From contig CAZCYD010000005.1 of the NCBI GenBank assembly GCA_964502735.1, positions 54,632 through 118,631 on the forward strand: a DNA stretch of 64,000 nucleotides. The letters are read 5' to 3'. Position numbers and translations under genes: made by a program. Source of the stretch: an uncultured Pseudobdellovibrionaceae bacterium. Its GTDB lineage: Bacteria; Bdellovibrionota; Bdellovibrionia; Bdellovibrionales; UBA1609. The notes beneath the pieces are model-generated. The model was given only the letters and a program-made list of their open reading frames with translations. It had not been told where the DNA came from and made no database searches. Of the stretch, positions 39,347-55,186 are shown one piece after another (position 1 is the stretch's first letter; every line of letters starts with the position of its first letter).

Positions 39347-39358
39347 AGAAGAGGTCTA

Positions 39359-42029: not shown

Positions 42030-42128
42030 TTTTAAAATTAAAAGTGGAAAGGTAGTTGTCCTCCACCTTTCCACCCAGATTTTGTTAAGGGAGCAACATA
42101 TCTTAACTTAATCGAAGTAGAACCTAGG

Positions 42129-42158
42129 GGGTGGGTGTATAAACACTCACCCTTTTTA
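42129..42158 (+). terminator. intrinsic terminator after flagellin 4
   Basis: GGGTGGGTG/CACTCACCC stem (one G-U pair) followed by TTTTT. An additional hairpin lies at 42044-42074. Confidence 0.6.
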
Positions 42159-42339
42159 TAGGTTATAATAAGTGTTGCGAAAACAAGACTCCTAAAAAGT
42201 CGGGTACCCAGTACCATTGTATAGAGTATCTAGACTAATAAATTAAGACTTTGTATGTATTTGATATGATCTTTGTCCTGAACTCACCGACGAAAGAACA
42301 GTTCTCACTAGACTAAAAGTGGGATCTCCAAGACTTGAC

Positions 42340-42366
42340 TAAAGACGTCCCAAGACTAGCCGTTAG
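42340..42366 (+). promoter_or_regulatory. sigma-28 promoter, flagellin 5
   Basis: TAAAGACG-N11-GCCGTTAG. Confidence 0.65.
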
Positions 42367-42476
42367 AGAGTTATGTGCAGTAACAGTTTGTAAAACAGAC
42401 TGTATTTTTGTGCAAATTCTAGATTCTCGAAGCAAGTATAAGGTCTAGGAAGTTGTAAAATAGGAGGATAGTCATT

Positions 42477-43310
42477 ATGGCTCTTGTGGTGAGTACAAAT
42501 ATAGCGTCAATTAATGCTCAAAGATCATTGAATCAGTCGCAAAGAGAAATTGATAAATCCTATGCTCAGCTGGCCTCTGGTAGTCGAATTACGAAGGCAG
42601 CAGATGATGCTGCGGGATTGTCGATCAGTGAAACATTAAAATCGACAATTCGTGGATATCAACAGGCCCAAAGGAATACAAACGACGGTATGTCTATGGT
42701 TCAGGTTGCCGAGGGTGGACTTGGTGAAATTTCAAATATTTTAACGAGATTGAGAGAGCTGGGCGTTCAGGCATCTTCCGATACTGTAGGTTCTACAGAA
42801 AGAGAATTTATAAATAAAGAGGTAGTTCAGTTGAAGGAGGAGCTTCAGCGAATTGCTCAGTCAACAAGATTCGGGTCTAGAAACTTACTAGATGGGTCAG
42901 GCGCCGAATATGAGTTCCAAGTTGACATACATAATGATGACTTTCGAGACAGGATTGCATTTGATGCTTCTTTGCAAGAGGCCACTCTTTCATCTTTAGA
43001 CATTGAAGATTTATCTTATGATTCAAAAGTGGGAGCTCAAGAGTCTTTAGAAGTGTTAGATGAAGCTCAGAACAAAGTGAATTCCTACAGGGCTAATTTA
43101 GGTGCTATACAAAATCGTCTAATTTCGACTAGTGAGAATTTAGGTGTGGCTATAGAAAACTTTAGTGCAGCCAATTCACGTATTCGCGATGCGGACATAG
43201 CGAGTTCGTCGGCGGAGGTAACAAGGAACAATATTCTTATGAACGCATCAATTGGAGTTTTGTCTCAAGCCAATAGTAATCCCGCCAGCTCTTTGAAGCT
43301 GTTATCTTAA
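42477..43310 (+). CDS. fliC: flagellin (paralog 5)
   Basis: Canonical flagellin N and C termini. Confidence 0.95.
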   Translation: MALVVSTNIASINAQRSLNQSQREIDKSYAQLASGSRITKAADDAAGLSISETLKSTIRGYQQAQRNTNDGMSMVQVAEGGLGEISNILTRLRELGVQASSDTVGSTEREFINKEVVQLKEELQRIAQSTRFGSRNLLDGSGAEYEFQVDIHNDDFRDRIAFDASLQEATLSSLDIEDLSYDSKVGAQESLEVLDEAQNKVNSYRANLGAIQNRLISTSENLGVAIENFSAANSRIRDADIASSSAEVTRNNILMNASIGVLSQANSNPASSLKLLS

Positions 43311-43466: not shown

Positions 43467-43859
43467 ATGTTTTTATTGATGAATATAAAGTCACTGGCCT
43501 ATAAAATTACTCCTATTGAGCGCGATTCGCAGGTGAGCGCAATAAATAAGTCCGTGAAATCGGAAAGTTCTAGTGCTGATCGAGATCCAAACGGACAAAG
43601 ACAGAGAGATAAGGATAAGAACGCAAAGGACTTTTTAAACGATGAAGAAATGCAAAATGTGTTAGAGAAACTCAAGAATTTTCCGGGCGTACGTGACAAT
43701 AACCTGACCGTAAAGCTTGTTGTCAATGAGATTGCTCGTTATGTTGTGATTACTGATGCCTTAGGAAAAACAGTTAGAAGAATCCCTGAAAGCGAGCTCT
43801 GGCCTCTTATCCAAGAAAAAGAGAATGACAAAGGCCATTTAATCGACAAGGCGGGATGA
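43467..43859 (+). CDS. flaG: FlaG-family protein
   Basis: C-terminal L.VKLVVNEIARYVVITDALGKTVRRIPESEL matches the FlaG pattern. Lies upstream of fliD. Confidence 0.7.
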   Translation: MFLLMNIKSLAYKITPIERDSQVSAINKSVKSESSSADRDPNGQRQRDKDKNAKDFLNDEEMQNVLEKLKNFPGVRDNNLTVKLVVNEIARYVVITDALGKTVRRIPESELWPLIQEKENDKGHLIDKAG

Positions 43860-44059
43860 ATGTCGAGTTACCTTGTTGGTGTGGGCACCGTGTTTTAAAA
43901 TTGACGGTTTAGAAACTCTTGTCTTTTGTCCGTGACATATTATTGGCTCACGAATGATTTACATAATGAATATAATTAAGAGTATAAGACCTGTAGCGTC
44001 TTTGTGAATTTTGATATTTGAACTAGAAGGGTTCAAGAAACAACCAGGAGGGTTGTAAT

Positions 44060-45436
44060 TTGGCAGCAATTTCATTTGGGGGTCTTAGTTCGGGACTTCC
44101 GCCAAATTTAGTAGATAATTTGATTGAGGCAGAAAGAATGCCCATTCAAAATCTTGAGATTCGTAAAGGCAAAACACAGTCTAAATTAGATCTTGTCAAT
44201 ACTTTATCTGAAAAGGTATCCAAACTTACTGAGTCCATAGGAACATTAGCCTCTACACGTGGGTTTAACGATATAAAATTACTGAGCGGTGATCCAAATA
44301 TTGTTCAAGGAGTGGTCGATCCGGGTTTTGCAATCCCAGGTAGTTACAATATAGAGGTTTTGCAGTTAGCGCAGAAAGCGGCGGCAGTTACAAATGGTTT
44401 TCCAGATCGAGATAGAACTCAGTTAGGTGTAGGTTACTTTAAGTTCGAAACTCCAAGAGGTAGTGTCGACGTTTATATAAATGGATCAAATAATACTCTA
44501 GAGGGTGCCGTTAATGCTATCAATTCAGCAAATGTAGGGGTTAGAGCATCAATAATTAATGATCGCAAAAGCCCAGATGCGCCATTTAAGCTTTTAATCA
44601 CTGGAGACAGTGTAGGCGAAGACAATGAAATAAAGTATCCAACACTTTACTTTTTGGATGGTGATCAAGATTTATATTTTGATCAAGAAATTGAAGCCAA
44701 GAACGGAGTCGTTAAAATTGATGGGTTTGAATTCGAGATTACAGACAATACGGTCAAAGACGTTATTCCTGGTGTGACTTTAGAGTTGAAACAAGCAGCC
44801 CCGGATCGAAATGTAAATGTAACCGTGAAGGAAGACCAAGAGATTGTAGCAGGAAAAGTCAAAGAGTTTGTTGATGGACTCAATGAGGTACTTAAATTTA
44901 TACAATCACAAAGTAAAATGGATGCTAATACAGATACAAGCCGGACACTTGGGGGAGAGGGACTACTTAGATCTCTGGAGAATAGAATTCGTAGTTTAAT
45001 ACAAAATCCTCAAGTCGGTATTAATGGAAAAATAAGAAGCCTTAACCAGCTAGGAGTCACATTTAATAGGTCTGGGACCTTAGATTATGATGCCGACAAA
45101 TTTAATTCGGTTTTAAGTCGAGACCCCCAGGCCGTTCAAAGTTTTTTTGCAGGAGATGGTTTTGCGGTAGGTTTTGTTCCGTCTCTTAAAAATCAAATAC
45201 GAGTGATTATGGACCCTTCAATGGGACCAATTTCACTTAGGAAAAAATCGCTACAGGATCAGATAAAAAGATTAGACGATAATATCGAAAGAAAAGACAA
45301 GCAGCTTCTAAAAAAGGAAGAGTCTTTAAGGAGAAAATTTGCCAAACTCGAGGAAACAATGTCTCGCTTAAAGTCTCAAGGCGGAGCTGTAAATGCGATT
45401 GCTAATGTTGGAATCCCTAACTTTGGTGGAGGATAA
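44060..45436 (+). CDS. fliD: flagellar filament cap FliD
   Basis: TTG start after AGGAGGG. N-terminal ISFGGLSSGL..LI.AE and a C-terminal coiled coil. Confidence 0.9.
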   Translation: MAAISFGGLSSGLPPNLVDNLIEAERMPIQNLEIRKGKTQSKLDLVNTLSEKVSKLTESIGTLASTRGFNDIKLLSGDPNIVQGVVDPGFAIPGSYNIEVLQLAQKAAAVTNGFPDRDRTQLGVGYFKFETPRGSVDVYINGSNNTLEGAVNAINSANVGVRASIINDRKSPDAPFKLLITGDSVGEDNEIKYPTLYFLDGDQDLYFDQEIEAKNGVVKIDGFEFEITDNTVKDVIPGVTLELKQAAPDRNVNVTVKEDQEIVAGKVKEFVDGLNEVLKFIQSQSKMDANTDTSRTLGGEGLLRSLENRIRSLIQNPQVGINGKIRSLNQLGVTFNRSGTLDYDADKFNSVLSRDPQAVQSFFAGDGFAVGFVPSLKNQIRVIMDPSMGPISLRKKSLQDQIKRLDDNIERKDKQLLKKEESLRRKFAKLEETMSRLKSQGGAVNAIANVGIPNFGGG

Positions 45437-45543
45437 AAAATGTTTGGGCATTAAAAGATAATTATTAAAAGATTATAAAGTTAAGAAGAATGAAATCCGA
45501 ATTACATAATTGTAAGTAGAGTTAGTTTTAGAGGAGAAGAAGA

Positions 45544-45936
45544 GTGAGTCATAGCCCTTATCAAAAGTATAAAAAAACATCCGTTGAGAGCGCTAGTCGA
45601 GAGAAACTCTTATTGATGATGTATGAGGGTGCTATACGTTATGTGAAAAGAGCTATGATAGCCGTAGATAAGGGTGATATTGCAGATAGAGGCCAGAACA
45701 TAGGTTGTGCATATGATGTAATAATGGAGCTTAACAACACCTTGAATCATGAAGTTGGTGGTGAGATTGCGAAAAATCTAGAGCAGCTCTACATGTTTAT
45801 GACTGATGAATTGATCAAGGCCAATATTAAGGCTGATAAGGAAAAATTGAATAATGTTTTAAAAATATTAGAGACACTATATGAAGGTTGGTGTCAGGCA
45901 GTAGAAAAATTAAAAAAAGAATCAACAGCAGGGTAA
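45544..45936 (+). CDS. fliS: flagellin chaperone FliS
   Basis: Y.K..VESAS.EKLLLMMYEGAIRY. Confidence 0.9.
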   Translation: MSHSPYQKYKKTSVESASREKLLLMMYEGAIRYVKRAMIAVDKGDIADRGQNIGCAYDVIMELNNTLNHEVGGEIAKNLEQLYMFMTDELIKANIKADKEKLNNVLKILETLYEGWCQAVEKLKKESTAG

Positions 45937-45957
45937 TTAATAGACCAAGGAGGGGAT

Positions 45958-46386
45958 ATGTCCAGCATCGTAGATCTACTTATAGAAAAAAATCATTTTT
46001 TAGATAAATTTCTGAGTCTTAATGAGTCAGAAATTCTGAATTTCATAGATGGAAACTTTGACAATCTTGATAACTTCTATAACTCAAGAGAGAAGATTCT
46101 TGGAATATTGTCTGAAATTGATAGTAAAATAGAAGAGGAAACTATTTTTGAATACGAAGAGTCATTATCTTCTGAATACAAAAAACAAGTCGTAAGAGCT
46201 TTGGACTACAAAAACGAAATTGTAAAAAGAATTTTGGCGCAAGACTTACAAATACTTTCTTTAATAGAAAGTGCAAAGTCTCATATCATTAAAGAGCTTT
46301 CTTCTGTAAAGTCCACCAGAAAGATTTTTAATTCATACAAATCTGGGAAAAATTCAGCACCAGAAAAAATTGACGAAAAGGTCTAG
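45958..46386 (+). CDS. helical acidic protein, possible FliT-like chaperone
   Basis: Assigned only by position after fliS and helical character. Confidence 0.3.
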   Translation: MSSIVDLLIEKNHFLDKFLSLNESEILNFIDGNFDNLDNFYNSREKILGILSEIDSKIEEETIFEYEESLSSEYKKQVVRALDYKNEIVKRILAQDLQILSLIESAKSHIIKELSSVKSTRKIFNSYKSGKNSAPEKIDEKV

Positions 46387-46507: not shown

Positions 46508-46522
46508 TGGCATCAATGTTGC
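46508..46522 (+). promoter_or_regulatory. sigma-54 promoter for the TPR/GT9 module
   Basis: TGGCAT-CAATG-TTGC with GG-N10-GC spacing, 28 nt before ATG 46550. Confidence 0.6.
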
Positions 46523-46549
46523 TCATATAGAGTTTGAGAGGGGTAGAGA

Positions 46550-47425
46550 ATGTCAGAATTTGAGACCAATGTCAGAGTGAGATTTCCCTTAAGGGAAAGA
46601 AGTATTCCATCAGAAGAAAATGATAATAAGAAAAAGTGTGATGAGCTAGCCGAGCCTTCTTTTTTATTGAAATCATCTGTAGATCGAAGAAAGTATTTAA
46701 AAGAATTTGATCAAGTCGAGCAAATTGAAGATCCTAAAGATATACAGCAAATATTTGAGTCGGCTGAATTATTTTACTTTCAGGGTTTGGATTCAAAAGC
46801 TTATGAGGCTTATTTAAGATATATAGGTAGTGGTAACTACAACCCTCATAATCTTTTTGTGGCCTATAAAAATATTGGAAATATCAAAATACGATCTGGT
46901 GATCTCGAGGGGGCTGAGGAATACTATCACAAAGCATATACTATAAACCCTGATTCAGACACGCTTCTGGTTAATCTTGGAACTTTGGAAATTCAAAAAA
47001 AGAATTTAGAAAAAGCTTTGGAGCGATATCGAATGGCTGTGGACGTTAATCCTAGAAATTCTAGAGGTTGGATTGGCCTTGCCTTGGCTCATAGAGAATA
47101 TGGAGATATTGACTTGGCATGGGGAAATCTAGAAAGATCTTTAGATATTGAACCTTGTGATGATACAGCTCTTGAACTTCTAGTTCAGTGGGGAATAAAA
47201 GACAGTCGAATCGATATAGCAATTGAAAAATTAAGAAACTATTTAAGCATTAACCCAAATAATATTCATATGCGTTTGGCTTTAATTCATGTCTACATTA
47301 TTGGTGGCCGTCTCAGTGTTGCACGAGGTTTTGTTGAAGAGTCATTGAAGTTAGATCCAAATAATGATGATCTATTGAACATTTTTAATAACTTGAAGAC
47401 TATAACAGCGGAGGAACTGGCTTGA
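46550..47425 (+). CDS. TPR-repeat protein
   Basis: Several 34-aa TPR-like units (AYKNIGNIKIRSGDLEGAEEYYHKAYTINPD; LEKALERYRMAVDVNPRN; GWIGLALAH..GDIDLAW). Confidence 0.75.
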   Translation: MSEFETNVRVRFPLRERSIPSEENDNKKKCDELAEPSFLLKSSVDRRKYLKEFDQVEQIEDPKDIQQIFESAELFYFQGLDSKAYEAYLRYIGSGNYNPHNLFVAYKNIGNIKIRSGDLEGAEEYYHKAYTINPDSDTLLVNLGTLEIQKKNLEKALERYRMAVDVNPRNSRGWIGLALAHREYGDIDLAWGNLERSLDIEPCDDTALELLVQWGIKDSRIDIAIEKLRNYLSINPNNIHMRLALIHVYIIGGRLSVARGFVEESLKLDPNNDDLLNIFNNLKTITAEELA

Positions 47426-48054
47426 TTCAATCCTTTACCTCTAGAACTAATATGCCGATTTTTACATGGAATGAGAAACACTTGTGCTCTAGAGTCGACC
47501 CCGTAGCTGAAGCGAAAGAGTGGGTGTGTAAATATAAGAATCAAATACAATCGTGCTCAGAAGTTATAGTTTTAGGACTAGGATGCGGGTATCATATTTT
47601 GGAAGTTATTAAAGAGTTTAGTGGAAAAAAAGTGACTGTCATTGAGTCTCAACCAGAAATCATCAGCTGGTTTGGTAGGTATTATCCCATGGAGTCTGCT
47701 AGTTTTAAGTGTTTAGTCATTAGGGCAGAAGAGGAGCTGTTGAAGTCCTCAGCTATCCAGAGCTCGATAAAACAGTTTTACACGGTTTTAGCACACAGGC
47801 CGAGTCTTGAAATATTTCCAGAATTAAAGATCTACCATAGGTGGCTCTTGGGAAGAACTTATGATTCGCTTAGTTGGATAACACAATTAAGATCAGAAAA
47901 AAGTTTATATGATTGGCAATCTCGATCTCTCTACGATTTAAATAAAGATGGGTTAACAATTATGGACTTAGAATTCAAAGATGAAAGCGGACGTGCAAAT
48001 TGTCTGAGTGATATTCAACAGAAAATTTTAGCCTTGAGAGAACTTATTGCATGA
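47422..48054 (+). CDS. small Rossmann-like protein; resembles my recollection of the N-terminal region of Maf-type flagellin glycosyltransferases
   Basis: L.SRVDPVAEAKEWV then VIVLGLGCGYHILEV...KKVTVIES.PE. TTG overlaps the upstream stop. Confidence 0.35.
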   Translation: MIQSFTSRTNMPIFTWNEKHLCSRVDPVAEAKEWVCKYKNQIQSCSEVIVLGLGCGYHILEVIKEFSGKKVTVIESQPEIISWFGRYYPMESASFKCLVIRAEEELLKSSAIQSSIKQFYTVLAHRPSLEIFPELKIYHRWLLGRTYDSLSWITQLRSEKSLYDWQSRSLYDLNKDGLTIMDLEFKDESGRANCLSDIQQKILALRELIA

Positions 48055-49697
48055 AAGTACTAGCTGTTTCAATATTACGTTTGGGAGACATATTAATGAT
48101 GGTGCCGGTCTTAAGGGCGTTAAAAGACCAGAACGAAAATGTTGAATTACATGTATTGATAAACAGGCAGTTTAATTTTGTTAGATATATTTTGCCATGG
48201 GTTGATAAATTTATAGTTTTAGATAGAGAGGAATTACAAAAAGGACTTGGAGAGTACAATCGTCCTATTTTTGAGCCGTTGGATAGGATAAGCGCTGTTA
48301 TTGATTTTCTAAACCGACAAAATTACGACAAGATCGTGAACTTAAGTCACTCCAGATTTAGTGGTTTTATATGCGGAATGATAGATGCAAACGAAAAGTT
48401 AGGATTGTCTATAAATAGAAATAACACTGTGAGTTTTGGCAATAAGTGGTATTCGTATATGAATGAACAATGCACACTTCCGCGATCTTCATCGGCACAC
48501 TTATTAGACGTTCACTATTATGGATCTGGTTTGACATACAGTCCATATAATTTTGATTATAGAATTTCAGCGAGGGGTGAGGCTGAAGCTGATGCCATTT
48601 TAGAATCGAATACTAAATTCATTTGTGTTCAGGTTCTTACGAGTGATGTAAAAAAGAATTGGGGATATGATAATTTTGCGGAATCTTTAAAAGTATTCAA
48701 AATGACAAATCCGAACATAGCTATATACAGTTTGGGAGCGCCGAGTGAAAGCCAAGACATTGCAGACTTTATAAGGATCTGTGAAGAGCGAGGGGTTAAA
48801 GTTGTGCCTGCCATATGTTCTTTAGAGGGGGCCTTGTCTATTCTTTCTAGGTGTGAATTATTAATCACGGGCGATACAAGCATAAAGCACTTAGCCTGTG
48901 GTGTTGATTGTAGTATCTTGGAGATCGCTGTTGGAAGTAGCGACTTCCTAAAAACTGGAGTTTATAAGAGTCAAAGTTATATAGTTTCTAGTCGTGAGGC
49001 TTGTTACCCTTGTATTCACAGTCACTCTTGTCATCAGCCAACACATGTTTGTTCAAATTCTATTGAGCCTGCAATCATCGGATTGTTAGCTAATCAAATA
49101 TTAATTGGAGCTTCACGAGAAATAGAAATCGTAGCAAAAGAATATAACGATAAAGTGGTTGTTCATCGAACGTATTTTAGTCACTCAGGATTTTGGTATG
49201 TCCGCAACCTTGCAGAAAAGATTTCACCAAAGGACTTTGAGTCTGTAATTAAGCTATCTAGCTGGAAGCTATTGAATCAAGGCGAACATCATAAGTTAGT
49301 GGGGGCCTATGGAAGTGAGTCTATAAAATTAAAGGCGGCACTTAGGCAAGCCTATCCAGAGGCGAAGATCAAAGAAAAAAAACATTTTCTTACAGGACTG
49401 GAAAGCACAACAATAAAGAAAGGCGAAGCTATTTATAATCTTAAAACGGCACTGAGGCGCGCAACAAATAGTAGCCGGATATTAGAGGATATCAAATCTA
49501 ATTATCAGATTTTATCAGATGAGCTGAGTCCAAATTTTGCTAACGAAGTTTTAAAATTTTTTGAAAACTACGATGGAGATGGCTCTAAAAATTTTTTAAA
49601 CCTCAGGAAGTATTCAGAAACACTTGAGAATGTTTTCATAAGAAATCAGATACAACTTAAACTTTTAAGAAACATGATTGGTCAGACAATGGAGTAA
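48051..49697 (+). CDS. glycosyltransferase family 9 (heptosyltransferase-like) with a helical C-terminal extension of about 200 aa
   Basis: MKVLAVSILRLGDILMMVPVLRALK, GDTSIKHLA, CYPCIHSHSCHQPTHVC. ATGA coupling to the upstream gene. Confidence 0.75.
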   Translation: MKVLAVSILRLGDILMMVPVLRALKDQNENVELHVLINRQFNFVRYILPWVDKFIVLDREELQKGLGEYNRPIFEPLDRISAVIDFLNRQNYDKIVNLSHSRFSGFICGMIDANEKLGLSINRNNTVSFGNKWYSYMNEQCTLPRSSSAHLLDVHYYGSGLTYSPYNFDYRISARGEAEADAILESNTKFICVQVLTSDVKKNWGYDNFAESLKVFKMTNPNIAIYSLGAPSESQDIADFIRICEERGVKVVPAICSLEGALSILSRCELLITGDTSIKHLACGVDCSILEIAVGSSDFLKTGVYKSQSYIVSSREACYPCIHSHSCHQPTHVCSNSIEPAIIGLLANQILIGASREIEIVAKEYNDKVVVHRTYFSHSGFWYVRNLAEKISPKDFESVIKLSSWKLLNQGEHHKLVGAYGSESIKLKAALRQAYPEAKIKEKKHFLTGLESTTIKKGEAIYNLKTALRRATNSSRILEDIKSNYQILSDELSPNFANEVLKFFENYDGDGSKNFLNLRKYSETLENVFIRNQIQLKLLRNMIGQTME

Positions 49698-49699
49698 GT

Positions 49700-49882
49700 A
49701 TGAACAATAAACAACTAGAGAATCTTAAAAAATCATTAGGACAATTAGAGAAGGCTGCGCAGCAAATTGTAAATACAAGAGGATATACCAAAGAAGTTCA
49801 AAATATAAAAATATTAAGCGAACTCATTAGGGAGCAGTTAATTCATGAAAATATTGGTCATACAGCTCGCAAGATTGGGTGA
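49700..49882 (+). CDS. small coiled-coil ORF
   Basis: ORF starting 2 nt after the GT9-1 stop and overlapping the GT9-2 start by 38 nt. Confidence 0.3.
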   Translation: MNNKQLENLKKSLGQLEKAAQQIVNTRGYTKEVQNIKILSELIREQLIHENIGHTARKIG

Positions 49883-51341
49883 TATTTATCTTAGTTGGCC
49901 AGCATTATCAGGTCTAAGAAGAAAGTATCCCGATTCACAAATTGACATTCTCGTTAGAGAAAAGTTTGCATCGGCAGCTATTGGAAATATTGACATTGAC
50001 AGTGTTATCCGACTTCCCACAGCGCATATTTTAAATTCAATTTTACAAGAGGCTGAAGTTTCAGAAAGCTTTGAGGCTATTGAAAAATTTTGTAGCTCGC
50101 TCAGAGATGAAAATTATAATAAAATTATTAATCTGAGTTTTTCACCCTTTTCCAGTTATTTGGTGTCTGCAATATCAGGGGGCTCGCTTGCTGAAGTTAA
50201 GGGTTACTCTCGTTATGAGGACGGGTATTTAAGTATTGGAGATGATGTTAGTGCTTATTTTTATGCTCAAGTAGGTATAGGAAAACCAAATAGAGTACAC
50301 TTGGCTCAAATTTTTTCGGGAGTTGCAGGGGTAGAACTCATTGATGAAGATTGGAAGATCAGTGAGCTTGACGATTCTAAAAATAATTTTATTACGAAGT
50401 CCAAAGACCCGTATTTATTATTGCAGGTTGGAGCAAGTCAAATAGAAAAAACATATGGGGTTGATAAGTGGGCAGGAGTTCTCAATCATCTATCTAAGTT
50501 GTCGGATATAAAAGTTGTCCTTGTAGGTAGCTTATCAGAAAAAAAAATAGCTGCGGATCTTGTTGGTAAAACGAGCAATAAAAATATAATTAATATTGTG
50601 GGTCAGACTGAGGTGTCCCACTTAATGGGCTTAGCAAAAAATGCAAAACTTGTTGTAGGCTGTGACAGCTTAATGGTTCACATAGCTTCTTTAACTCGAG
50701 TTCCAACACTTAATGTTTCATTTGATACTGTTAATTTTTGGGAGACGGGCCCACTTGCAGATGGAAGTCGTGTTATTTACGGTAAGACTCCTAACGATAT
50801 AGCTTCAGACCGTGTGGCTTACGAAATAAAATGTATGTTGGAAGGTAAAGAAAGTGGAAACCCTGTTTATTTAAGATTCAATGGAAATTTAGAGTCTTAT
50901 ATTCCCAGTGGATATGTTGATGAGAGCTTTTGTTGGAAATTTATATTGGCTCTTTATATGGAGAAAGAATTTCCAGTTGTAGATGATGAGATAACTTTGA
51001 AAGGTTTAGAGAAACTGTATGCAACCTCTCAACTGGCTTTAGAGCAGTTAAACCATTTAAAGAATTGTAAGCCAGGAAGTTACCAATTAAAAATTTTGTC
51101 ATTTGTTGATGATATTATTTTACAGATTCCAAACTTAGCACCCCAGCTTCATCCCCTAGTCTCATGGTTTCAGACGGAAAGGGTGAGAATAGGTCCTGCA
51201 TCATTTGAAGATCTACAGCTAAAGACTAAAAGTTTATTCCATAAATTTATGGATATCATTAATTTATGTTTAGATAATTTTGATTTGCCTGGAGTTGAAA
51301 CGAAGGAGGCTGAGATTGCAAACGCAAATGTATTCGAATGA
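49845..51341 (+). CDS. glycosyltransferase family 9 (heptosyltransferase-like), second copy, with a C-terminal extension of about 160 aa
   Basis: MKILVIQLARLGDIYLSWPALSGLRRKYP, VGCDSLMVHIASL. Confidence 0.7.
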   Translation: MKILVIQLARLGDIYLSWPALSGLRRKYPDSQIDILVREKFASAAIGNIDIDSVIRLPTAHILNSILQEAEVSESFEAIEKFCSSLRDENYNKIINLSFSPFSSYLVSAISGGSLAEVKGYSRYEDGYLSIGDDVSAYFYAQVGIGKPNRVHLAQIFSGVAGVELIDEDWKISELDDSKNNFITKSKDPYLLLQVGASQIEKTYGVDKWAGVLNHLSKLSDIKVVLVGSLSEKKIAADLVGKTSNKNIINIVGQTEVSHLMGLAKNAKLVVGCDSLMVHIASLTRVPTLNVSFDTVNFWETGPLADGSRVIYGKTPNDIASDRVAYEIKCMLEGKESGNPVYLRFNGNLESYIPSGYVDESFCWKFILALYMEKEFPVVDDEITLKGLEKLYATSQLALEQLNHLKNCKPGSYQLKILSFVDDIILQIPNLAPQLHPLVSWFQTERVRIGPASFEDLQLKTKSLFHKFMDIINLCLDNFDLPGVETKEAEIANANVFE

Positions 51342-51939
51342 AGAACTAATGAAAAAATATAGTGAAGGTACTAAATTGAATCTAGTAGTGAAAGATTTAG
51401 AAGAAGAACAGTGGAAAAGTGGAAGAGTTATTTGTGAAATACATGTGAACGGCAACTATCTTTCTGAGGAAGAAGAGAAGAGCCTGGATCGTATGCCTCT
51501 GTCTAGTTTAAGCGTTTTAGAAATCATTACGCGAGATCAATCTGAACTTATTGAAGTTACACTAAGAACCATTTACCAATGGTTGCCAAAGCTAAAAGAA
51601 AGGTCTCTTGAGATATCTCGAGGCCTCGGTGAGAATGGTTATTCCATGCCCACTCAGTCTTTTGTTGAGCTTATAGATGGTTGCACATGGTTTTCAGATT
51701 CACTAAGTCTATTAAAACCAAAATTACAAGATCTTGTGGTTGTTCAAAATTTTGGGACCAATTGGGACAACTGCCAAACAGTGTTTACTTCTGTAGCCAA
51801 AGAATCTTTAAAAGCATTTGAGCTAAGTGATTGGGTTTTACTCAAGGATATTCTTGAATATGAAATTCCTGTTTCGCTAGACCAATGGCAGGATTTATTA
51901 TTTAAACAACCTGAAATTTTCAAGATAGCTAATGTCTAG
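51328..51939 (+). CDS. hypothetical protein, last gene of the module
   Basis: ORF. ATG 51328 overlaps the GT9-2 stop by 14 nt. No family recognised. Confidence 0.45.
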   Translation: MYSNEELMKKYSEGTKLNLVVKDLEEEQWKSGRVICEIHVNGNYLSEEEEKSLDRMPLSSLSVLEIITRDQSELIEVTLRTIYQWLPKLKERSLEISRGLGENGYSMPTQSFVELIDGCTWFSDSLSLLKPKLQDLVVVQNFGTNWDNCQTVFTSVAKESLKAFELSDWVLLKDILEYEIPVSLDQWQDLLFKQPEIFKIANV

Positions 51940-52039: not shown

Positions 52040-53812
52040 GTGATAGATAGCGCTGGACCATTTGAAATATTTGTTCAAGAAGGGATTTCTCCTGGCTGGG
52101 GTTCAAAGTTTTTTTATAAGATATTTAAGCCCAACTGTAAGATAAAGGACTTTTTAACAGGTCGTATTTTAGTTATTGCCGCAGAGGATTTCAAAGTTTT
52201 GCCAGTGGATATTCCAGTAGAGACGATGGTTCTTTTAATTTTAAATCAATATCGCAGACAAGACTTTATTAAGTTCTCTCAAGGGCATAGCTGTATCGGA
52301 CTATTTAAGTTAGCGGAAGTTAAAAAGGCTATGGATTTTCTCAGGAAGAGATTTTCTACAACTATTGATTGGCAATCTTATGATAAGTGGTCAGAAATTA
52401 ATTTATTTGCCACAAAAGTATCAAAAATGTCATCGCTTTCAGATTTGTTATTTGAACTTAAAAAGGAATTTAAAAAAATAAAAAAAGTTAATCCACCTAT
52501 AATGGGAATATATAAAAATGAAACACAGGTGGATATTTTCTCATTTCAAGGGGATAAAATTAATGTGACTTATGCTCGAATGAAGCTTGATTCAGAGGGA
52601 GATAGGTCATGTCTGGCAACGGCACTGGGTAGACCAGTGGCCAAAGTTTTGGCTATGCCGATTAAGGGGCTTTATCCAGTGACCTTTTTTATAGAGCACG
52701 ATCTTACATCGGGTGAACTAGAGTATTTAAAGAGATTTGTATCAAGACGATTGCAGATAATAGAAACAATATTAGATATTTTATTGGTCGAACGAAAGTT
52801 AAAAGAGGCCTCCCATTTATGGGAAAAGACATTTGAGGGCATAGCAGACCCTGTTGCTATTGTAGATAAAAATTTTAATCTTCTGAGAGGTAATACAAAT
52901 TTTAAGAAAAATTTAAATGAAGAAAAATGTTTTCAAGTTTTTGCAAAAACTGAAAGCGCCTGCGAGAATTGTCCAATAGTAAAAAGAAGTCTAACACAAA
53001 ATCAAAAAGGAGAGGTTGTAGTAGACGGCAGAGTTTATGAAGTTCACAGTTCCCCAATCTTTTTATATAATCAGGAGAATATAGCCGGATATGCTAATCA
53101 TTATGTAGATCAGACTGAGACTCTAGGCTTAAAAACTAAAATCATTCAGAGTGAAAAGATGGCAGCTATAGGCCACTTGGCCGGGAATATTGCTCATGAG
53201 CTGAATAATCCCCTTACTGGTATTAGATCCACGGCACAGATATTAATTTCCGAAAGCGAAGATGAAGAGGTTCGGTCGGATCTTATTGAGGTTGAGAAGG
53301 CCTCTGCAAGATGCCAATCTATTATTAACAATCTGTTGGAGTACACTCGTGGTCAACAAGGAGATCTAAAAAAGGTCTCCTTACAATCAGTGGTTAGAAA
53401 AACAATTCCTCTGCTCAAAACAGCCTTGCGAGGAATAAATTTAAATATTGAATTCCACAAGGAAGATATTTTTATAAATGCTCACGAACAATTATTGCAA
53501 CAAGTTGTATTTAATATTGTATTAAATTCGACTCAGGCAATGAGTGGGGAGGGGCGTATAGATATTTTTGTTGATAAGATTAATGAAAACGGCTTTATAC
53601 GCATTCAAGATAGTGGGCCGGGGATTGCCGTCGAATTATTACCAAAAGTATTTGATCCATTCTTTACAACCAAAGAAGTGGGGGTAGGTACTGGACTTGG
53701 ATTAAGTATGGTAAAAAAGATTGTGGAGTCTTATGGAGGCGAGGTGACTCTACACAGCCAGGTGGGGCGTGGAACAGTTGTCTCGATATGTTTTTCCATT
53801 TGTGAAAGCTGA
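52040..53812 (+). CDS. cytoplasmic sensor histidine kinase (unknown N-terminal domain + PAS-like + HisKA + HATPase)
   Basis: H-box AHELNNPLTGI, N-box NIVLNSTQAM, G1 DSGPGI, G2 GVGTGLGLS. No clear TM segment. Cys motif C..(9)..C..C in the PAS-like part. Confidence 0.85.
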   Translation: MIDSAGPFEIFVQEGISPGWGSKFFYKIFKPNCKIKDFLTGRILVIAAEDFKVLPVDIPVETMVLLILNQYRRQDFIKFSQGHSCIGLFKLAEVKKAMDFLRKRFSTTIDWQSYDKWSEINLFATKVSKMSSLSDLLFELKKEFKKIKKVNPPIMGIYKNETQVDIFSFQGDKINVTYARMKLDSEGDRSCLATALGRPVAKVLAMPIKGLYPVTFFIEHDLTSGELEYLKRFVSRRLQIIETILDILLVERKLKEASHLWEKTFEGIADPVAIVDKNFNLLRGNTNFKKNLNEEKCFQVFAKTESACENCPIVKRSLTQNQKGEVVVDGRVYEVHSSPIFLYNQENIAGYANHYVDQTETLGLKTKIIQSEKMAAIGHLAGNIAHELNNPLTGIRSTAQILISESEDEEVRSDLIEVEKASARCQSIINNLLEYTRGQQGDLKKVSLQSVVRKTIPLLKTALRGINLNIEFHKEDIFINAHEQLLQQVVFNIVLNSTQAMSGEGRIDIFVDKINENGFIRIQDSGPGIAVELLPKVFDPFFTTKEVGVGTGLGLSMVKKIVESYGGEVTLHSQVGRGTVVSICFSICES

Positions 53813-53825
53813 GAGGAGGGGCTCT

Positions 53826-54185
53826 GTGAGAGTATTAATAATTGATGATGAAGATCTTGTAAGAAAATCCCTAGGTAGGGCTTTCAAGTCAAAAAATCAC
53901 GAAGTTTTTCTTGCGGAGGGTGGTCTAACGGGGCTAAGACTGTGGAAAGAATGCGAGCCAGAAATCGTGCTTTTGGATGTTTTAATGCCTGATTTAAGTG
54001 GGCCAAAATTATTAGAGGCCAATCCTGGGTCGGGGTTTGTGGTGTTGATGTCGGCTTACAAGGGTGAATATGACACTTTGACAGCCAAGAGCCTAGGGGC
54101 GCATGATTTTATATCAAAACCTTTTGAAGATATCTTCTTAACTGTGGAAAGGCTGGAGAAGGCTTATGAGAATTATAGCGGGTAA
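53826..54185 (+). CDS. stand-alone response-regulator receiver domain
   Basis: VLIIDDE, LLDVLMPD, MSA and SKPF. GTG start chosen after the HK stop. Confidence 0.8.
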   Translation: MRVLIIDDEDLVRKSLGRAFKSKNHEVFLAEGGLTGLRLWKECEPEIVLLDVLMPDLSGPKLLEANPGSGFVVLMSAYKGEYDTLTAKSLGAHDFISKPFEDIFLTVERLEKAYENYSG

Positions 54186-54741
54186 ATTTAAAGGCCGCAG
54201 ACTTGTGAGCTTTAAAGCGGATCACATCCGCCCTACAACAGACAGGGTTAAGGAAACCATTTTTAATATGTTACAGGCCCACATCGATGGAGCCAGAATA
54301 TTGGATCTATTTTCTGGCACTGGCAATCTTTCCATTGAAAGTCTATCGCGGGGAGCACAATTTGTAACTGCGGTTGAGAAGAATCGTGAATCAGTTAAAA
54401 TTATTAAAAAGAATCTTGCTGGATTTAATATCGACGAGGGTATTGAAGTCGTAGCAGCTGATGTAATGAAGTTTCTACAATTTTACAAGGGGCCTCCTTT
54501 TGACGTTATTTTGATAGATCCTCCTTTTACTGAGAAATTATCACATGATGTGCTTTCAAGCATTGGCAGCTCGCAAGTTTTAGGGGACGAGGGAATTATG
54601 GTGATTGAATCCGCTAAACAAGAAAGGGTAGATAAAAATTATAGTCGGCTAATTTTCTTGGACCAAAGACTCTTTGGTGATAAGAAAATAACCGTTTTTG
54701 AGGTTGAAAAAAATGATTGCAGTGTATCCGGGAAGCTTTGA
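54166..54741 (+). CDS. rsmD: 16S rRNA m2G966 methyltransferase RsmD
   Basis: MRIIAGKFKGRRL, RPTTDRVKE, LDLFSGTG and DPPF. Confidence 0.85.
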   Translation: MRIIAGKFKGRRLVSFKADHIRPTTDRVKETIFNMLQAHIDGARILDLFSGTGNLSIESLSRGAQFVTAVEKNRESVKIIKKNLAGFNIDEGIEVVAADVMKFLQFYKGPPFDVILIDPPFTEKLSHDVLSSIGSSQVLGDEGIMVIESAKQERVDKNYSRLIFLDQRLFGDKKITVFEVEKNDCSVSGKL

Positions 54742-55186
54742 TCCTATCACGGTTGGTCACATTGACATAATTCAAAGGATGAGTTCAAAGTTCGAAGAAT
54801 TTCATATTCTTGTCGCTAAGTCAGGAGATAAAGAATATTTTTTTTCGGAAGAAGAGAGAGTGGACCTTATTAAAGGAGCCTTGCCCAAAATATCAAATCT
54901 GAAAATTCACATCGGCAGTGGCTTAACTATAGATTTTGCAAAAAAGATTAAGGCGGACTGTATTTTAAGAGGACTAAGGGCTATTAGTGATTTCGAGTAC
55001 GAAATGGCAATGGCAAATATGAATAAAAAGCTTGCGGCAGAAATTGAGACTTTAATTGTTTTTGCCAGCCCCCAGCATCATTTTATTTCCTCGCGATTAG
55101 TGAAAGAAGTCGCTAGGCATGGCGGCGACCTGAGCGGTCTAGTTCCCCCTATTGTCGAGCAGGCACTAATGAAAAAACAAGAATAG
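54713..55186 (+). CDS. coaD: phosphopantetheine adenylyltransferase
   Basis: IAVYPGSFDPITVGHIDII, RGLRAISDFEYE and ISSRLVKEV. Confidence 0.9.
   Translation: MIAVYPGSFDPITVGHIDIIQRMSSKFEEFHILVAKSGDKEYFFSEEERVDLIKGALPKISNLKIHIGSGLTIDFAKKIKADCILRGLRAISDFEYEMAMANMNKKLAAEIETLIVFASPQHHFISSRLVKEVARHGGDLSGLVPPIVEQALMKKQE

What the first reader, a model, noticed from the sequence alone, without database searches (positions are those of the whole stretch)
46508..51939. Sigma-54-driven six-gene module (TPR, Maf-N-like, two extended GT9 glycosyltransferases, two unknowns) directly after fliD-fliS: candidate flagellin or flagellar-sheath glycosylation system of an unusual type
Seen in sequence:
- A consensus -24/-12 element (TGGCAT-N5-TTGC, 46508-46522) sits 28 nt before the TPR gene. 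It is the same promoter type as the one I find in front of flgF.
- Six ORFs follow with overlapping or 2-nt junctions (47422/47425, 48051/48054, 49697/49700, 49845/49882, 51328/51341), so they look like one operon.
- Both large proteins open with the GT9 signature (M-K-[VI]-L-x-[VI]-x-x-x-R-L-G-D).
- GT9-1 keeps GDTSIKHLA and a C-x-P-C...C...H-x-C cluster.
- Each GT9 carries an extra helical C-terminal extension of about 160-200 aa.

Established knowledge:
- GT9 enzymes use ADP-heptose, and LPS heptosyltransferases WaaC/WaaF are typically about 320-350 aa.
- Heptosyltransferase-related BAHT enzymes (AAH, TibC) O-heptosylate proteins.
- The Caulobacter flagellin glycosyltransferase FlmG uses a TPR domain to capture flagellins.
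- Maf proteins are the usual flagellin nonulosonic-acid transferases.

Inference:
- A free-standing TPR protein plus a Maf-N-like adaptor plus two GT9 catalytic subunits, in the flagellar regulon and next to five flagellin genes, could be a split flagellin-heptosylating machinery.
- Alternatively, it could modify the LPS of a flagellar sheath.
- An orphan ADP-heptose synthesis gene (hldC, 28919-29428) lies in the same window.
Basis: partly seen in the sequence, partly recalled or inferred. Interest (0 to 1): 0.72.

Follow-up and report, generated by a model that had tools for sequence, protein, structure and literature searches.

The report
Flagellar-locus GT9 glycosylation module, probably for flagellin
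Right after the flagellar cap and chaperone genes, this Bdellovibrio-like bacterium has a six-gene, sigma-54-driven unit whose two accessory proteins match parts of known flagellin-glycosylating machines but whose enzymes are heptosyltransferase-type (GT9), pointing to an undescribed way of putting sugar on flagellin.

Summary
Every sequence observation checks out: the -24/-12 element, six tightly packed ORFs, a TPR protein, a Maf-N-like protein and two extended GT9 proteins.

New evidence:
- The module and its sigma-54 promoter are conserved across the order Bdellovibrionales. Synteny holds in about 80 species-level genomes, and the promoter is present in 69 of 72 loci.
- ORF2 is a free-standing homologue of the N-terminal domain of Maf flagellin glycosyltransferases (hhalign 97.6%, E 3e-12).
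- "Unknown" ORF6 is a DUF8042 protein, a small alpha/beta domain plus a four-helix bundle. In other phyla its homologues sit directly beside Maf genes, fliD, flagellins and nonulosonic-acid genes. This is the position and architecture of GlfM, the published Maf-2 flagellin adaptor.
- Extended GT9 genes with the same four-cysteine knuckle lie directly upstream of DUF8042 in other lineages, for example Nitrospinota (GT9-DUF8042-FliD). In a rough tree they group with both window GT9s, apart from E. coli LPS heptosyltransferases.
- The GT9s are canonical GT9 folds, not TibC-type BAHTs, and they fall far below LPS WaaC/F/Q equivalog cut-offs.
- B. bacteriovorus HD100 encodes separate housekeeping GT9s (Bd1504, Bd2366).

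Verdict: most likely a cytoplasmic flagellin O-glycosylation system with GT9 catalysts, probably using ADP-heptose. It has not been described or tested. It is a new variant of a known kind.

The parts
46508..46522 (+). sigma-54 type -24/-12 promoter element, TGGCAT-N5-TTGC
   Evidence: Read directly. It is one of only two exact matches in the window. The same element lies at the same place in 69 of 72 related loci, and also in the relocated module of L053.
46550..47425 (+). TPR protein, 291 aa, with no signal peptide evident. It is the candidate flagellin-binding subunit.
   Evidence: Several Pfam TPR families score down to E 7e-17. It is the first gene of the module in all Bdellovibrionales loci. 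TPR genes also flank DUF8042 in other lineages.
47422..48054 (+). ORF2, 210 aa: a free-standing homologue of the N-terminal (Rossmann-like, GxGxGYH) domain of Maf flagellin glycosylation proteins
   Evidence: Of 52 orthologues, 20 hit Pfam Maf_flag10_N (best E 4.9e-6). hhalign of the ORF2 family against Maf proteins gives Prob 97.6%, E 3.2e-12, with ORF2 residues 3-144 aligned to Maf 40-192. G52 is invariant and G54, G56 and H58 are nearly invariant.
48051..49697 (+). GT9-1, 548 aa: a GT-B/GT9 catalytic domain (about 1-340) carrying a four-cysteine knuckle (residues 318-334, nt 49002-49052), followed by a C-terminal extension of about 200 aa that is mostly helical
   Evidence: PF01075 E 4e-15. 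The AF2 model has pLDDT 90. The best Foldseek matches are 3TOV, WaaC and WaaF. D13, K201/K202 and D275-T276 are invariant and the four cysteines are at least 90% conserved.
49700..49882 (+). Small conserved protein, 60 aa, likely helical, overlapping the start of GT9-2
   Evidence: It is conserved as a protein in at least 23 divergent loci, with mean column identity 48% and the motif TRGY...LL.ELIKEQ..NEN. It was called as a gene in L002. It has no family hit.
49845..51341 (+). GT9-2, 498 aa: a paralogous GT9 catalytic domain without the cysteine knuckle, followed by an unrelated C-terminal extension of about 160 aa
   Evidence: PF01075 E 1.4e-16. It is homologous to GT9-1 over residues 1-355 only (E 1.5e-54). 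R10, G12, D13 and D274 are invariant, and K202 and S275 are at least 90% conserved.
51328..51939 (+). ORF6, 203 aa: a DUF8042 (PF26154, with PF27299 TP0873_N) protein made of an N-terminal alpha/beta domain and a four-helix bundle, with the family motif (A/K)DILEYE in the last helix (LKDILEYEI here). It is the candidate GlfM-like adaptor.
   Evidence: The precomputed Pfam assignment is. The AF2 model has pLDDT 93. Homologues are encoded next to Maf, FliD and flagellin genes in other phyla.
43467..46386 (+). Context immediately upstream: flaG-like (43467-43859), fliD (44060-45436), fliS (45544-45936) and a FliT/FlgN-like gene (45958-46386)
   Evidence: ORFs are. Weak FliT and FlgN hits are and FlaG. 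The same order is found in about 80 loci.
52040..54185 (+). Histidine kinase (52040-53812) and response regulator (53769-54185) directly downstream. They may be linked to the module.
   Evidence: Pfam HisKA and HATPase_c hits are. The pair follows ORF6 in nearly all loci, and the kinase still follows ORF6 in the relocated module of L053. No terminator-like site lies between 46386 and 52300.

Best explanation
The six genes form a sigma-54-dependent flagellar operon. It most likely encodes a cytoplasmic, multi-subunit O-glycosyltransferase system for the flagellins (five paralogues in this window), acting before export.

Proposed working, all inferred:
- The TPR protein and/or the DUF8042 four-helix-bundle protein recognise flagellin.
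- The free-standing Maf-N-like protein, and perhaps the 60-aa protein, scaffold the complex as the N-domain does inside Maf enzymes.
- The Maf sialyltransferase-like catalytic domain is replaced by two GT9 enzymes. These transfer a sugar, most probably heptose from ADP-heptose, to Ser/Thr.
- GT9-1, which carries the four-cysteine metal knuckle, would prime. GT9-2 would extend the glycan or serve other sites or paralogues.

Shown here: gene content, homologies, conserved catalytic residues, the conserved promoter, and cross-phylum gene linkage.
Inferred: the acceptor, the donor sugar, the subunit contacts and the order of action.
For: 1. The flagellar context and the promoter are conserved across the order.
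   - The order FlaG-FliD-FliS-FlgN-like-TPR-ORF2-GT9-(small)-GT9-DUF8042 is found in about 80 species representatives.
   - The -24/-12 element is present in 69 of 72 loci.
   - In L053 the module has moved away from fliDS, and TPR-ORF2-GT9-DUF8042 travel together with the promoter.

2. ORF2 is a homologue of the Maf N-domain.

3. ORF6 is a DUF8042 protein.
   - Distant homologues sit directly after Maf (PF01973), next to flagellins, FliD and NeuB/CMP-synthetase genes, in Bacillota-type and other contigs.
   - They sit directly after FliD in a contig whose neighbour gene points to Leptospira.
   - Among 80 metagenome loci, within 3.5 kb of the DUF8042 gene, 22 have a Maf catalytic domain, 25 have FliD and 13 have a GT9.
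   - GlfM is the published Maf-2 adaptor that bridges Maf-2 to flagellin. It is a four-helix bundle encoded downstream of maf-2, with conserved F-R and D-x-x-E residues.
   - DUF8042 has the same position, a four-helix bundle, a conserved FR and an invariant D-I-L-E in the last helix.

4. GT9 plus DUF8042 pairs occur outside Bdellovibrionales.
   - Nitrospinota carry GT9 (491 aa)-DUF8042-FliD.
   - A high-GC lineage carries GT9-[Maf-N-like + Glyco_trans_1_2 GT]-GT9-DUF8042-TPR.
   - These GT9s are all extended (440-560 aa) and carry CxPC-x5-C-x4-6-C.
   - In an NJ tree they cluster with the window GT9s, away from E. coli WaaC/F/Q/U, which lack the cysteines.

5. Both GT9s keep the equivalents of WaaC D13, K192 and D261, so they are probably active.

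6. They score far below the LPS heptosyltransferase equivalog cut-offs. HD100 has separate GT9s, Bd1504 and Bd2366, annotated as LPS heptosyltransferases.

7. In the HD100 predation proteome, Bd0615 falls in the same temporal cluster as FliS. By gene order Bd0615 is the ORF2 orthologue.

8. Flagellin heptosylation has a chemical precedent in ETEC FliC.
Against: - There is no experimental datum on Bdellovibrio flagellin mass or glycans, and no paper was found on these genes.
- Within Bdellovibrionales the whole neighbourhood is syntenic, including HK, RR, rsmD and coaD, so linkage there is weak evidence on its own.
- GT9 enzymes with known function act on LPS cores. The only known heptosyltransferase-related protein glycosyltransferases (BAHT) are a different lineage, and TibC is only the 33rd Foldseek match.
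- In the high-GC lineage, the GT9/DUF8042 loci have no flagellar gene within 6 kb.
- The flagellum of bdellovibrios is sheathed, so an LPS target remains conceivable.
- No sugar-biosynthesis gene is linked to the module. hldC lies 17 kb away, beside unrelated genes.
Confidence: 0.6

Rival explanations
1. The two GT9 enzymes modify lipopolysaccharide or another lipid-linked glycan destined for the flagellar sheath. The TPR and accessory proteins would tie this to flagellar assembly.
For: - All characterised canonical GT9 enzymes glycosylate LPS inner cores, and the closest folds are WaaC, WaaF and 3TOV.
- Bdellovibrios have a sheathed flagellum whose LPS differs from that of the cell body (review).
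- Expression from a flagellar sigma-54 promoter would fit sheath-coupled synthesis.
Against: - Two accessory proteins are homologous to parts of flagellin-specific glycosylation systems: the Maf N-domain and the Maf/FliD-linked DUF8042.
- The same GT9-DUF8042 pairing occurs next to fliD in Nitrospinota.
- The proteins score far below the WaaC/F/Q equivalog cut-offs.
- Separate housekeeping GT9s exist in HD100.
- The reported sheath-LPS difference is in fatty acids, not in core sugars.
Confidence: 0.12
2. The module glycosylates another protein: a different flagellar axial or cap protein (FliD, FlaG, hook proteins), or a non-flagellar target. DUF8042 and Maf-N-like proteins would then be general adaptors for protein glycosyltransferases.
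For: - DUF8042 is more often next to fliD than next to flagellin genes. Within 3.5 kb, 25 of 80 loci have FliD and 3 of 80 have a flagellin.
- Some lineages have FliD-DUF8042 with no nearby glycosyltransferase.
- The high-GC GT9/DUF8042/TPR loci lack nearby flagellar genes.
- The authors of the GlfM preprint themselves suggest GlfM might serve other partners.
Against: - The only characterised relatives (Maf-1, Maf-2/GlfM, FlmG) act on flagellin.
- In most bacteria flagellin genes lie beside fliD anyway, and five flagellin genes lie within 13 kb here.
Confidence: 0.13
3. The proteins do not glycosylate anything. They would form a chaperone-like or regulatory complex for flagellin export or translation, with the GT9 domains acting as nucleotide-sugar sensors or scaffolds.
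For: - ORF6 and the C-terminal extensions are helical bundles like flagellar chaperones.
- The preprint reports that GlfM resembles FliS and FliT by HHpred.
- A histidine kinase and response regulator follow the module, even after relocation.
Against: - The catalytic Asp and the donor-binding Lys and Asp-Thr/Ser motifs are invariant or nearly invariant in both GT9 families over about 80 species. This is expected only for active enzymes.
Confidence: 0.05

Closest known systems
Maf-2/GlfM tripartite flagellin glycosylation system (Shewanella oneidensis SO_3260 GlfM with Maf-2; Unay, Kint and Viollier, bioRxiv 10.1101/2023.12.03.569772)
   Same: - It is encoded in the flagellar locus and acts in the cytoplasm.
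- A small four-helix-bundle adaptor is encoded just downstream of the glycosyltransferase. ORF6/DUF8042 has this position and architecture, a conserved FR and a D-x-x-E in the last helix.
- A Maf N-terminal domain is present, here as the separate protein ORF2.
   Different: - No MAF_flag10/PF01973 catalytic domain is present. Catalysis would be by two GT9 enzymes.
- The donor is therefore expected to be ADP-heptose rather than a CMP-nonulosonic acid. No Pse or Leg genes were seen beside the module in this window or in the related loci examined.
- ORF6 is about 200 aa with an extra N-terminal domain, against 89 aa for GlfM.
- Direct homology to SO_3260 was not tested.
TPR-guided flagellin glycosyltransferases FlmG (Caulobacter) and Maf-1 (Shewanella)
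   Same: In those enzymes a TPR domain selects flagellin as the acceptor. The module starts with a TPR protein.
   Different: Here the TPR is a separate polypeptide, and the catalytic family is different. No test of TPR-flagellin binding was possible.
LPS heptosyltransferases WaaC/WaaF/WaaQ (CAZy GT9, Pfam PF01075)
   Same: - They share the GT-B fold, the N-terminal GD motif with the catalytic Asp, and the donor-binding Lys and D-T/S motif.
- ADP-heptose is therefore the likely donor.
   Different: - The window proteins are 150-200 aa longer, through C-terminal extensions.
- GT9-1 has a four-cysteine insertion that the four E. coli enzymes compared (WaaC, WaaF, WaaQ, WaaU) lack.
- Their scores are far below the equivalog cut-offs.
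- They lie in a flagellar operon with protein-glycosylation accessory genes instead of a waa cluster.
Bacterial autotransporter heptosyltransferases (BAHT: TibC, AAH)
   Same: They are heptosyltransferase-related GT-B enzymes that O-glycosylate a protein. They carry a four-cysteine metal ('iron-finger') insertion in the C-lobe that takes part in substrate recognition and oligomerisation. GT9-1 has a four-cysteine knuckle after its C-lobe.
   Different: - There is no N-terminal beta-barrel domain.
- TibC is not detected by the family profile and is only rank 33 by structure, at E 8e-6 against 1e-12 for 3TOV and WaaC.
- The cysteine spacing differs: C-x2-C-x5-C-x6-C here, against C339, C342, C358 and C370 in TibC.
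Heptosylated flagellin of enterotoxigenic E. coli H10407 (Boysen et al. 2016, PMC5000012)
   Same: It is a precedent that Ser/Thr of a flagellin can carry heptose.
   Different: No dedicated flagellar-locus enzyme was assigned there. The organism and the genetics are unrelated.

Membership tests
Glycosyltransferase family 9 (Pfam PF01075 / CAZy GT9) | Pfam PF01075 match above the gathering score | tested here: met
   GT9-1 scores 56.2 bits and GT9-2 61.0 bits, against a cut-off of 22.
Glycosyltransferase family 9 (Pfam PF01075 / CAZy GT9) | GT-B fold closest to solved GT9 structures | tested here: met
   For the AF2 model of GT9-1 (pLDDT 90.2), the top Foldseek hits are 3TOV, WaaC (6DFE, 2H1H) and WaaF (1PSW), at E around 1e-12. 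GT9-2 was not modelled. It aligns to GT9-1 over residues 1-355 at E 1.5e-54.
Glycosyltransferase family 9 (Pfam PF01075 / CAZy GT9) | Catalytic Asp in the N-terminal G-D motif, and the donor-binding Lys and D-T/S motif (WaaC D13, K192, D261-T262; residue roles recalled from established knowledge) | tested here: met
   In GT9-1, D13, K201/K202 and D275-T276 are invariant. In GT9-2, D13 and D274 are invariant, and K202 and S275 are at least 90% conserved. The alignment to WaaC is shown.
Glycosyltransferase family 9 (Pfam PF01075 / CAZy GT9) | Uses ADP-heptose as donor | not testable with these tools
   This is inferred from family membership only. hldC is present in the window but unlinked.
LPS heptosyltransferase I/II/III equivalogs (NCBIfam TIGR02193, TIGR02195, TIGR02201) | Score above the curated equivalog cut-off | tested here: not met
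   The best scores are 50.7 bits (GT9-1) and 81.9 bits (GT9-2), against a cut-off of 185.3 for TIGR02193. The other models are also far below their cut-offs.
BAHT protein heptosyltransferases (TibC/AAH) | N-terminal beta-barrel domain and closest sequence or structure similarity to TibC | tested here: not met
   GT9-1 starts directly with the Rossmann beta1 strand. TibC is absent from the profile search at E up to 10 and is rank 33 in Foldseek.
BAHT protein heptosyltransferases (TibC/AAH) | Four-cysteine iron-finger insertion in the C-lobe | tested here: inconclusive
   GT9-1 has conserved C318, C321, C327 and C334. The spacing differs from TibC C339/342/358/370, and the metal is unknown. GT9-2 lacks the cysteines.
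Maf flagellin glycosyltransferases (PF01973 MAF_flag10 + PF20157 Maf_flag10_N) | MAF_flag10 (DUF115/MptE-like) catalytic domain | tested here: not met
   None of the six proteins hits PF01973. The GT9-1 profile shows no similarity to Maf.
Maf flagellin glycosylation proteins (PF01973 MAF_flag10 + PF20157 Maf_flag10_N) | Maf N-terminal domain | tested here: met
   ORF2 meets this feature only. Of 52 orthologues, 20 hit PF20157. hhalign to Maf N-terminal regions gives Prob 97.6%, E 3.2e-12 over 139 columns. The window protein alone is below the Pfam gathering score (21.0 against 23.5 bits).
DUF8042 (PF26154) / GlfM-type adaptor | Membership of PF26154 and the family motif in the last helix | tested here: met
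   The precomputed Pfam assignment for the window protein is PF26154 plus PF27299. D, L, E and Y of the (A/K)DILEYE motif are invariant and shared with Maf-linked members; the window reads LKDILEYEI. The profile finds 4899 clusters at E up to 1e-3.
DUF8042 (PF26154) / GlfM-type adaptor | Homology to the characterised GlfM (SO_3260) and binding to the glycosyltransferase and flagellin | not tested
The resemblance rests on gene position, the four-helix bundle and the conserved FR / D-x-x-E pattern described in the preprint.
sigma-54-dependent promoter | GG-N10-GC with TGGCA-N6-TTGC consensus at a suitable distance from the start codon, conserved in orthologous loci | tested here: met
sigma-54-dependent promoter | RpoN- and activator-dependent transcript start | not testable with these tools
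   No transcript data were examined.

The most novel reading that the evidence does not exclude
A phylogenetically widespread, unrecognised class of extended GT9 enzymes bearing a four-cysteine knuckle would be dedicated protein O-heptosyltransferases for flagellin. They would work with a GlfM-like DUF8042 adaptor. In Bdellovibrionales they would have replaced the Maf catalytic domain, leaving the Maf N-domain as a separate subunit of a six-protein, sigma-54-controlled complex. If so, the filament inside the sheath of predatory bdellovibrios would be heptosylated.
Probability: 0.42. Interest if true: 0.8.

Novelty: new variant of a known kind. Interest (0 to 1): 0.7.

Why it matters
**A possible third catalytic family.** Known dedicated flagellin glycosyltransferases include the Maf (GT-A-like) and FlmG types for sialic-acid-like sugars, plus various GT2 or OGT-like enzymes. 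A GT9-based system would add a new catalytic family and probably a new sugar, heptose.

**Interchangeable parts.** It would show that the recognition parts of the machinery (TPR, Maf N-domain, GlfM-like bundle) are modules that can be wired to unrelated catalysts.

**A handle on DUF8042.** It gives a functional lead for DUF8042, a family of thousands of uncharacterised proteins. It would also extend protein heptosylation beyond autotransporters.

**Easy to test.** The module is conserved in all Bdellovibrionales sampled, including genetically tractable B. bacteriovorus. The hypothesis can be tested at once by deletion plus flagellin mass spectrometry. It may bear on filament assembly inside a sheath and on predator motility.

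Tried and rejected
- **BAHT membership.** A profile search of the PDB with the GT9-1 family did not find TibC. Foldseek puts TibC at rank 33. Membership is rejected and only the four-cysteine analogy is kept.

- **C-terminal extensions as Maf C-terminal domains or GlfM-like bundles.** hhalign of the GT9-1 and GT9-2 families against Maf and DUF8042 gave nothing (Prob below 1%). The two extensions are also not detectably related to each other.

- **PDB sequence searches with the ORF2 and ORF6 profiles.** These gave only marginal hits: class I methyltransferase motif I for ORF2 and designed helical bundles for ORF6. Foldseek of the ORF6 model gave only generic four-helix bundles at E above 0.09.

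- **hldC as part of the system.** The gene is real, but it is flanked by prmA, rsmE and an RDD protein. It is treated as unlinked.

- **Literature.** Searches for the HD100 locus tags Bd0610-Bd0621, TP0873, GT9 with flagellin, and heptosyltransferase with flagellin glycosylation found no description of this module.

- **Terminators and sigma-70 promoters.** The scan gave no useful signal for operon boundaries.

- **Sigma-28 motif.** A simple regex upstream of the five flagellin genes found nothing. The test is too crude to interpret.

Full report
**1. What is in the sequence**

- TGGCATcaatgTTGC lies at 46508-46522, 27 nt before the ATG at 46550.
- It is one of only two exact TGGCA-N6-TTGC matches in the 64 kb, where 0.68 are expected by chance.
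- The other match, at 14620, sits at the 5' end of a FlgF/G-type rod gene.

Six ORFs follow on the + strand, with overlaps or a 2-nt gap:

| ORF | Coordinates | Length |
|---|---|---|
| TPR | 46550-47425 | 291 aa |
| ORF2 | 47422-48054 | 210 aa |
| GT9-1 | 48051-49697 | 548 aa |
| Small ORF | 49700-49882 | 60 aa |
| GT9-2 | 49845-51341 | 498 aa |
| ORF6 | 51328-51939 | 203 aa |

- Upstream lie two of the five flagellin genes, then flaG, fliD, fliS and a FliT/FlgN-like gene.
- Downstream lie a histidine kinase, a response regulator, rsmD and coaD.
- Pfam and NCBIfam confirm the TPR repeats, a weak Maf_flag10_N hit for ORF2 and PF01075 for both large proteins.
- The best LPS heptosyltransferase equivalog scores are far below cut-off: 50.7 and 81.9 bits against 185.3.

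**2. The organism and conservation of the module**

- GT9-1 homologues with a source name all come from Bdellovibrionales, Bdellovibrio or Pseudobdellovibrionaceae.
- A scan of species-representative genomes returned 80 loci, nearly all labelled Bdellovibrionota (two only 'Proteobacteria'). They include several complete B. bacteriovorus and Bdellovibrio sp. chromosomes. The nearest relative is 55% identical.
- Wherever the contig is long enough, the gene order is the same: FlaG-FliD-FliS-FlgN-like-TPR-ORF2-GT9-1-(small)-GT9-2-ORF6-HK-RR-RsmD-CoaD.
- The neighbours are equally syntenic, so this linkage alone is weak evidence. Two observations make the module a unit.
  - A TGGCA-N6-T(T/C)GC element lies between the FlgN-like gene and the TPR gene in 69 of 72 loci, although the proteins are only about 30-35% identical.
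  - In one genome (L053) TPR-ORF2-GT9-1-ORF6 and the kinase have moved away from fliDS. They lost GT9-2 but kept the -24/-12 element.
- The 60-aa ORF is a real gene. It is conserved as a protein in at least 23 divergent loci, with mean column identity 48%.

**3. The two GT9 proteins**

- The GT9-1 family keeps R10, G12, D13, K201/K202, E233, D275, T276, K279 and H280 invariant.
- It also keeps C318-x-P-C321-x-H-x3-C327-x6-C334 at 90% or more.
- The GT9-2 family keeps R10, G12, D13 and D274 invariant, and K202 and S275 at 90% or more. It has no cysteine cluster.
- By the alignments, and by established knowledge of the enzyme, these residues correspond to WaaC D13, K192 and D261-T262. Both proteins therefore look catalytically competent.
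- The AF2 model of GT9-1 (pLDDT 90.2) is a GT-B fold followed by a mostly helical extension over residues 340-547.
- The best structural matches are the Veillonella GT9 3TOV, WaaC and WaaF, at E about 1e-12. TibC appears only at rank 33, at E 8e-6, and is not found by the family profile.
- The proteins are therefore canonical GT9 and not BAHT members. The four-cysteine knuckle recalls the TibC iron finger (C339, C342, C358, C370) only by analogy.
- The two paralogues align over residues 1-355 only (E 1.5e-54). Their extensions are unrelated to each other, to Maf or to DUF8042.

**4. The accessory proteins tie the module to flagellin glycosylation**

ORF2:
- Of 52 orthologues, 20 hit Maf_flag10_N and 13 hit methyltransferase motif-I models.
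- The family profile aligns to residues 40-192 of Maf proteins with Prob 97.6% and E 3.2e-12.
- ORF2 is thus a free-standing Maf N-domain.

ORF6:
- It carries the precomputed Pfam families PF26154 (DUF8042) and PF27299 (TP0873_N).
- Its model (pLDDT 93) is a small alpha/beta domain plus a four-helix bundle, with no specific PDB match.
- The family is large: 4899 clusters at E up to 1e-3. It includes Halanaerobiales proteins annotated only as hypothetical.
- The last-helix motif (A/K)DILEYE is shared by all members examined, with D, L, E and Y invariant; the window reads LKDILEYEI.
- Distant members lie immediately downstream of Maf (PF01973), next to flagellins, FliD and NeuB/epimerase/CMP-synthetase genes (L084, L085, L086).
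- One lies immediately after FliD in a contig whose neighbour gene points to Leptospira (L087).
- Among 80 further metagenome loci, within 3.5 kb of the DUF8042 gene, 22 have a Maf catalytic domain, 25 have FliD and 13 have a GT9.

**5. Link to published work**

- A 2023 preprint from the Viollier laboratory shows that S. oneidensis Maf-2 needs GlfM. GlfM is a cis-encoded protein predicted to be a four-helix bundle, encoded downstream of maf-2. It binds Maf-2 and bridges it to flagellin.
- F24, R25, D77 and E80 are strictly conserved in GlfM, and D77 in the last helix is essential.
- Maf-1 and FlmG instead use a TPR domain to bind flagellin.
- DUF8042 has the same gene position, a four-helix bundle, a conserved FR and a D-x-x-E in the last helix.
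- I regard it as very probably the same family.
- The preprint does not mention GT9, heptose or Bdellovibrio.

**6. GT9-DUF8042 pairing outside Bdellovibrionales**

- In Nitrospinota the order is GT9 (491 aa)-DUF8042-FliD (L113).
- In a high-GC lineage the order is GT9-[Maf-N-like region fused to DUF3880 + Glyco_trans_1_2]-GT9-DUF8042-TPR (L130-L134, L146).
- These GT9s are all extended (440-560 aa) and all carry CxPC-x5-C-x4-6-C.
- In a neighbour-joining tree of the catalytic domain they group with the window's GT9-1 and GT9-2, apart from E. coli WaaC, WaaF, WaaQ and WaaU, which lack the cysteines.
- The tree has few outgroups and no support values, so it is indicative only.
- The picture is of a toolkit: a TPR, a Maf N-domain and a GlfM-like bundle combined with different catalytic domains.

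**7. Other context**

- In B. bacteriovorus HD100, different papers assign fliD and fliS to Bd0610/0611 or to Bd0611/0612.
- The proteome supplement lists FliS (Q6MQ70), Bd0613 (Q6MQ69), Bd0615 (Q6MQ67) and the kinase Bd0620 (Q6MQ63).
- By gene order this makes Bd0615 the ORF2 orthologue. It is detected with four peptides, in the same temporal cluster as FliS.
- The same data list separate GT9 proteins, Bd1504 and Bd2366, annotated as LPS heptosyltransferases. The flagellar pair is therefore additional to these separately annotated GT9 enzymes.
- hldC in the window is genuine but unlinked.
- No paper reports glycosylated Bdellovibrio flagellin.
- Heptose on a flagellin has been reported for ETEC FliC.

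**8. Interpretation**

- Best explanation (about 0.6): a sigma-54-controlled, cytoplasmic, multi-subunit flagellin O-glycosylation system.
  - Recognition and scaffolding are inherited from Maf/GlfM- and TPR-type systems.
  - Catalysis is by two GT9 enzymes, probably with ADP-heptose.
- Rival readings:
  - sheath or LPS modification (about 0.12);
  - another protein acceptor such as FliD (about 0.13);
  - a non-catalytic chaperone or regulatory complex (about 0.05).
- The acceptor, the sugar and the subunit contacts are inferred, not shown.

**9. Novelty and score**

- The kind of system, a dedicated flagellin glycosylation system in a flagellar locus, is known.
- The catalytic family, the split architecture and the probable sugar are not described. 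I rate it a new variant of a known kind.
- It is conserved in a whole order that includes a tractable model organism, and it has relatives in other phyla.
- It also gives a functional lead for a large DUF family.
- Interest: 0.70.

Noticed in passing
L084:3847-6332, L085:7090-9420, L086:7074-9630, and L088-L100: In Bacillota-type and other metagenome contigs, DUF8042 genes follow directly after Maf (PF01973) genes inside flagellin/FliD/NeuB clusters. A second arrangement, FliD-DUF8042-Maf-FliS, recurs in about nine loci (L138, L140, L143, L148-L150, L153, L159, L163). DUF8042 is probably the Pfam family of the published adaptor GlfM, but no source names it so.
   Followed up: partly
L134:1169-7638 (also L130, L132, L133, L146): A high-GC lineage has GT9 (about 470-506 aa), then a 594-aa protein, then GT9 (about 547-603 aa), DUF8042 and TPR. 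The 594-aa protein has a Maf-N-like N-terminus fused to DUF3880 + Glyco_trans_1_2. No flagellar gene lies within 6 kb. The Maf N-domain thus also occurs fused to a third kind of glycosyltransferase.
   Followed up: partly
L113:4239-9135: Marine Nitrospinota contigs carry GT9 (491 aa, with the four-cysteine knuckle)-DUF8042-FliD (625 aa). They are followed by a 166-aa protein that one source calls a Zn-ribbon protein.
   Followed up: partly
L053:6194-12303: In one MAG ('Proteobacteria bacterium BJ13') the module is reduced to TPR-ORF2-GT9-1-DUF8042 and is detached from fliD/fliS, lying among PilZ and ExoD genes. It keeps the sigma-54 element and is still followed directly by the histidine kinase. 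The kinase may therefore belong functionally to the module.
   Followed up: partly
window 49700-49882: The 60-aa ORF overlapping the start of GT9-2 is better conserved than ORF2 or ORF6. In HD100 the UniProt accession numbering leaves room for only five proteins between the FlgN-like gene and the kinase, so this gene appears to be unannotated there.
   Followed up: partly
window 14620-14634 and 14619-15464: The second exact sigma-54 consensus of the window lies at the 5' end of a FlgF/G-type rod gene. The listed GTG start overlaps the promoter, so the true start codon is probably further downstream.
   Followed up: no
window 24950-26281: A FliW flagellar assembly factor lies at 24950-25489 (NCBIfam E 7e-37). 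It is followed by a 186-aa ORF with a faint FlgT_C hit.
   Followed up: no
window 33319-43310: There are five short flagellin genes (274-283 aa), consisting of D0/D1 plus a variable stretch of about 50 aa that holds 8-10 Ser/Thr. My crude sigma-28 regex found no match upstream of any of them.
   Followed up: no
window 54166-55186; L168:16541-18305: rsmD-coaD lie about 2.2 kb downstream of the GT9 module. In E. coli K-12, coaD sits beside waaA at the edge of the LPS-core (waa) cluster that holds the GT9 genes. This is probably coincidental, but it is a recurrent neighbourhood.
   Followed up: no
GT9-1 model (ranks 10, 11, 19): Chains of chloroplast NDH-PSI supercomplexes (9GRX, 7WFF, 7F9O) are among the better structural matches of the GT9 fold, ahead of many bacterial GT-B enzymes.
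   Followed up: no
L050, L061, L070: Three Bdellovibrionales loci lack a match to the -24/-12 pattern upstream of the TPR gene. In L061 and L070 the intergenic region and the proteins are unusually long.
   Followed up: no
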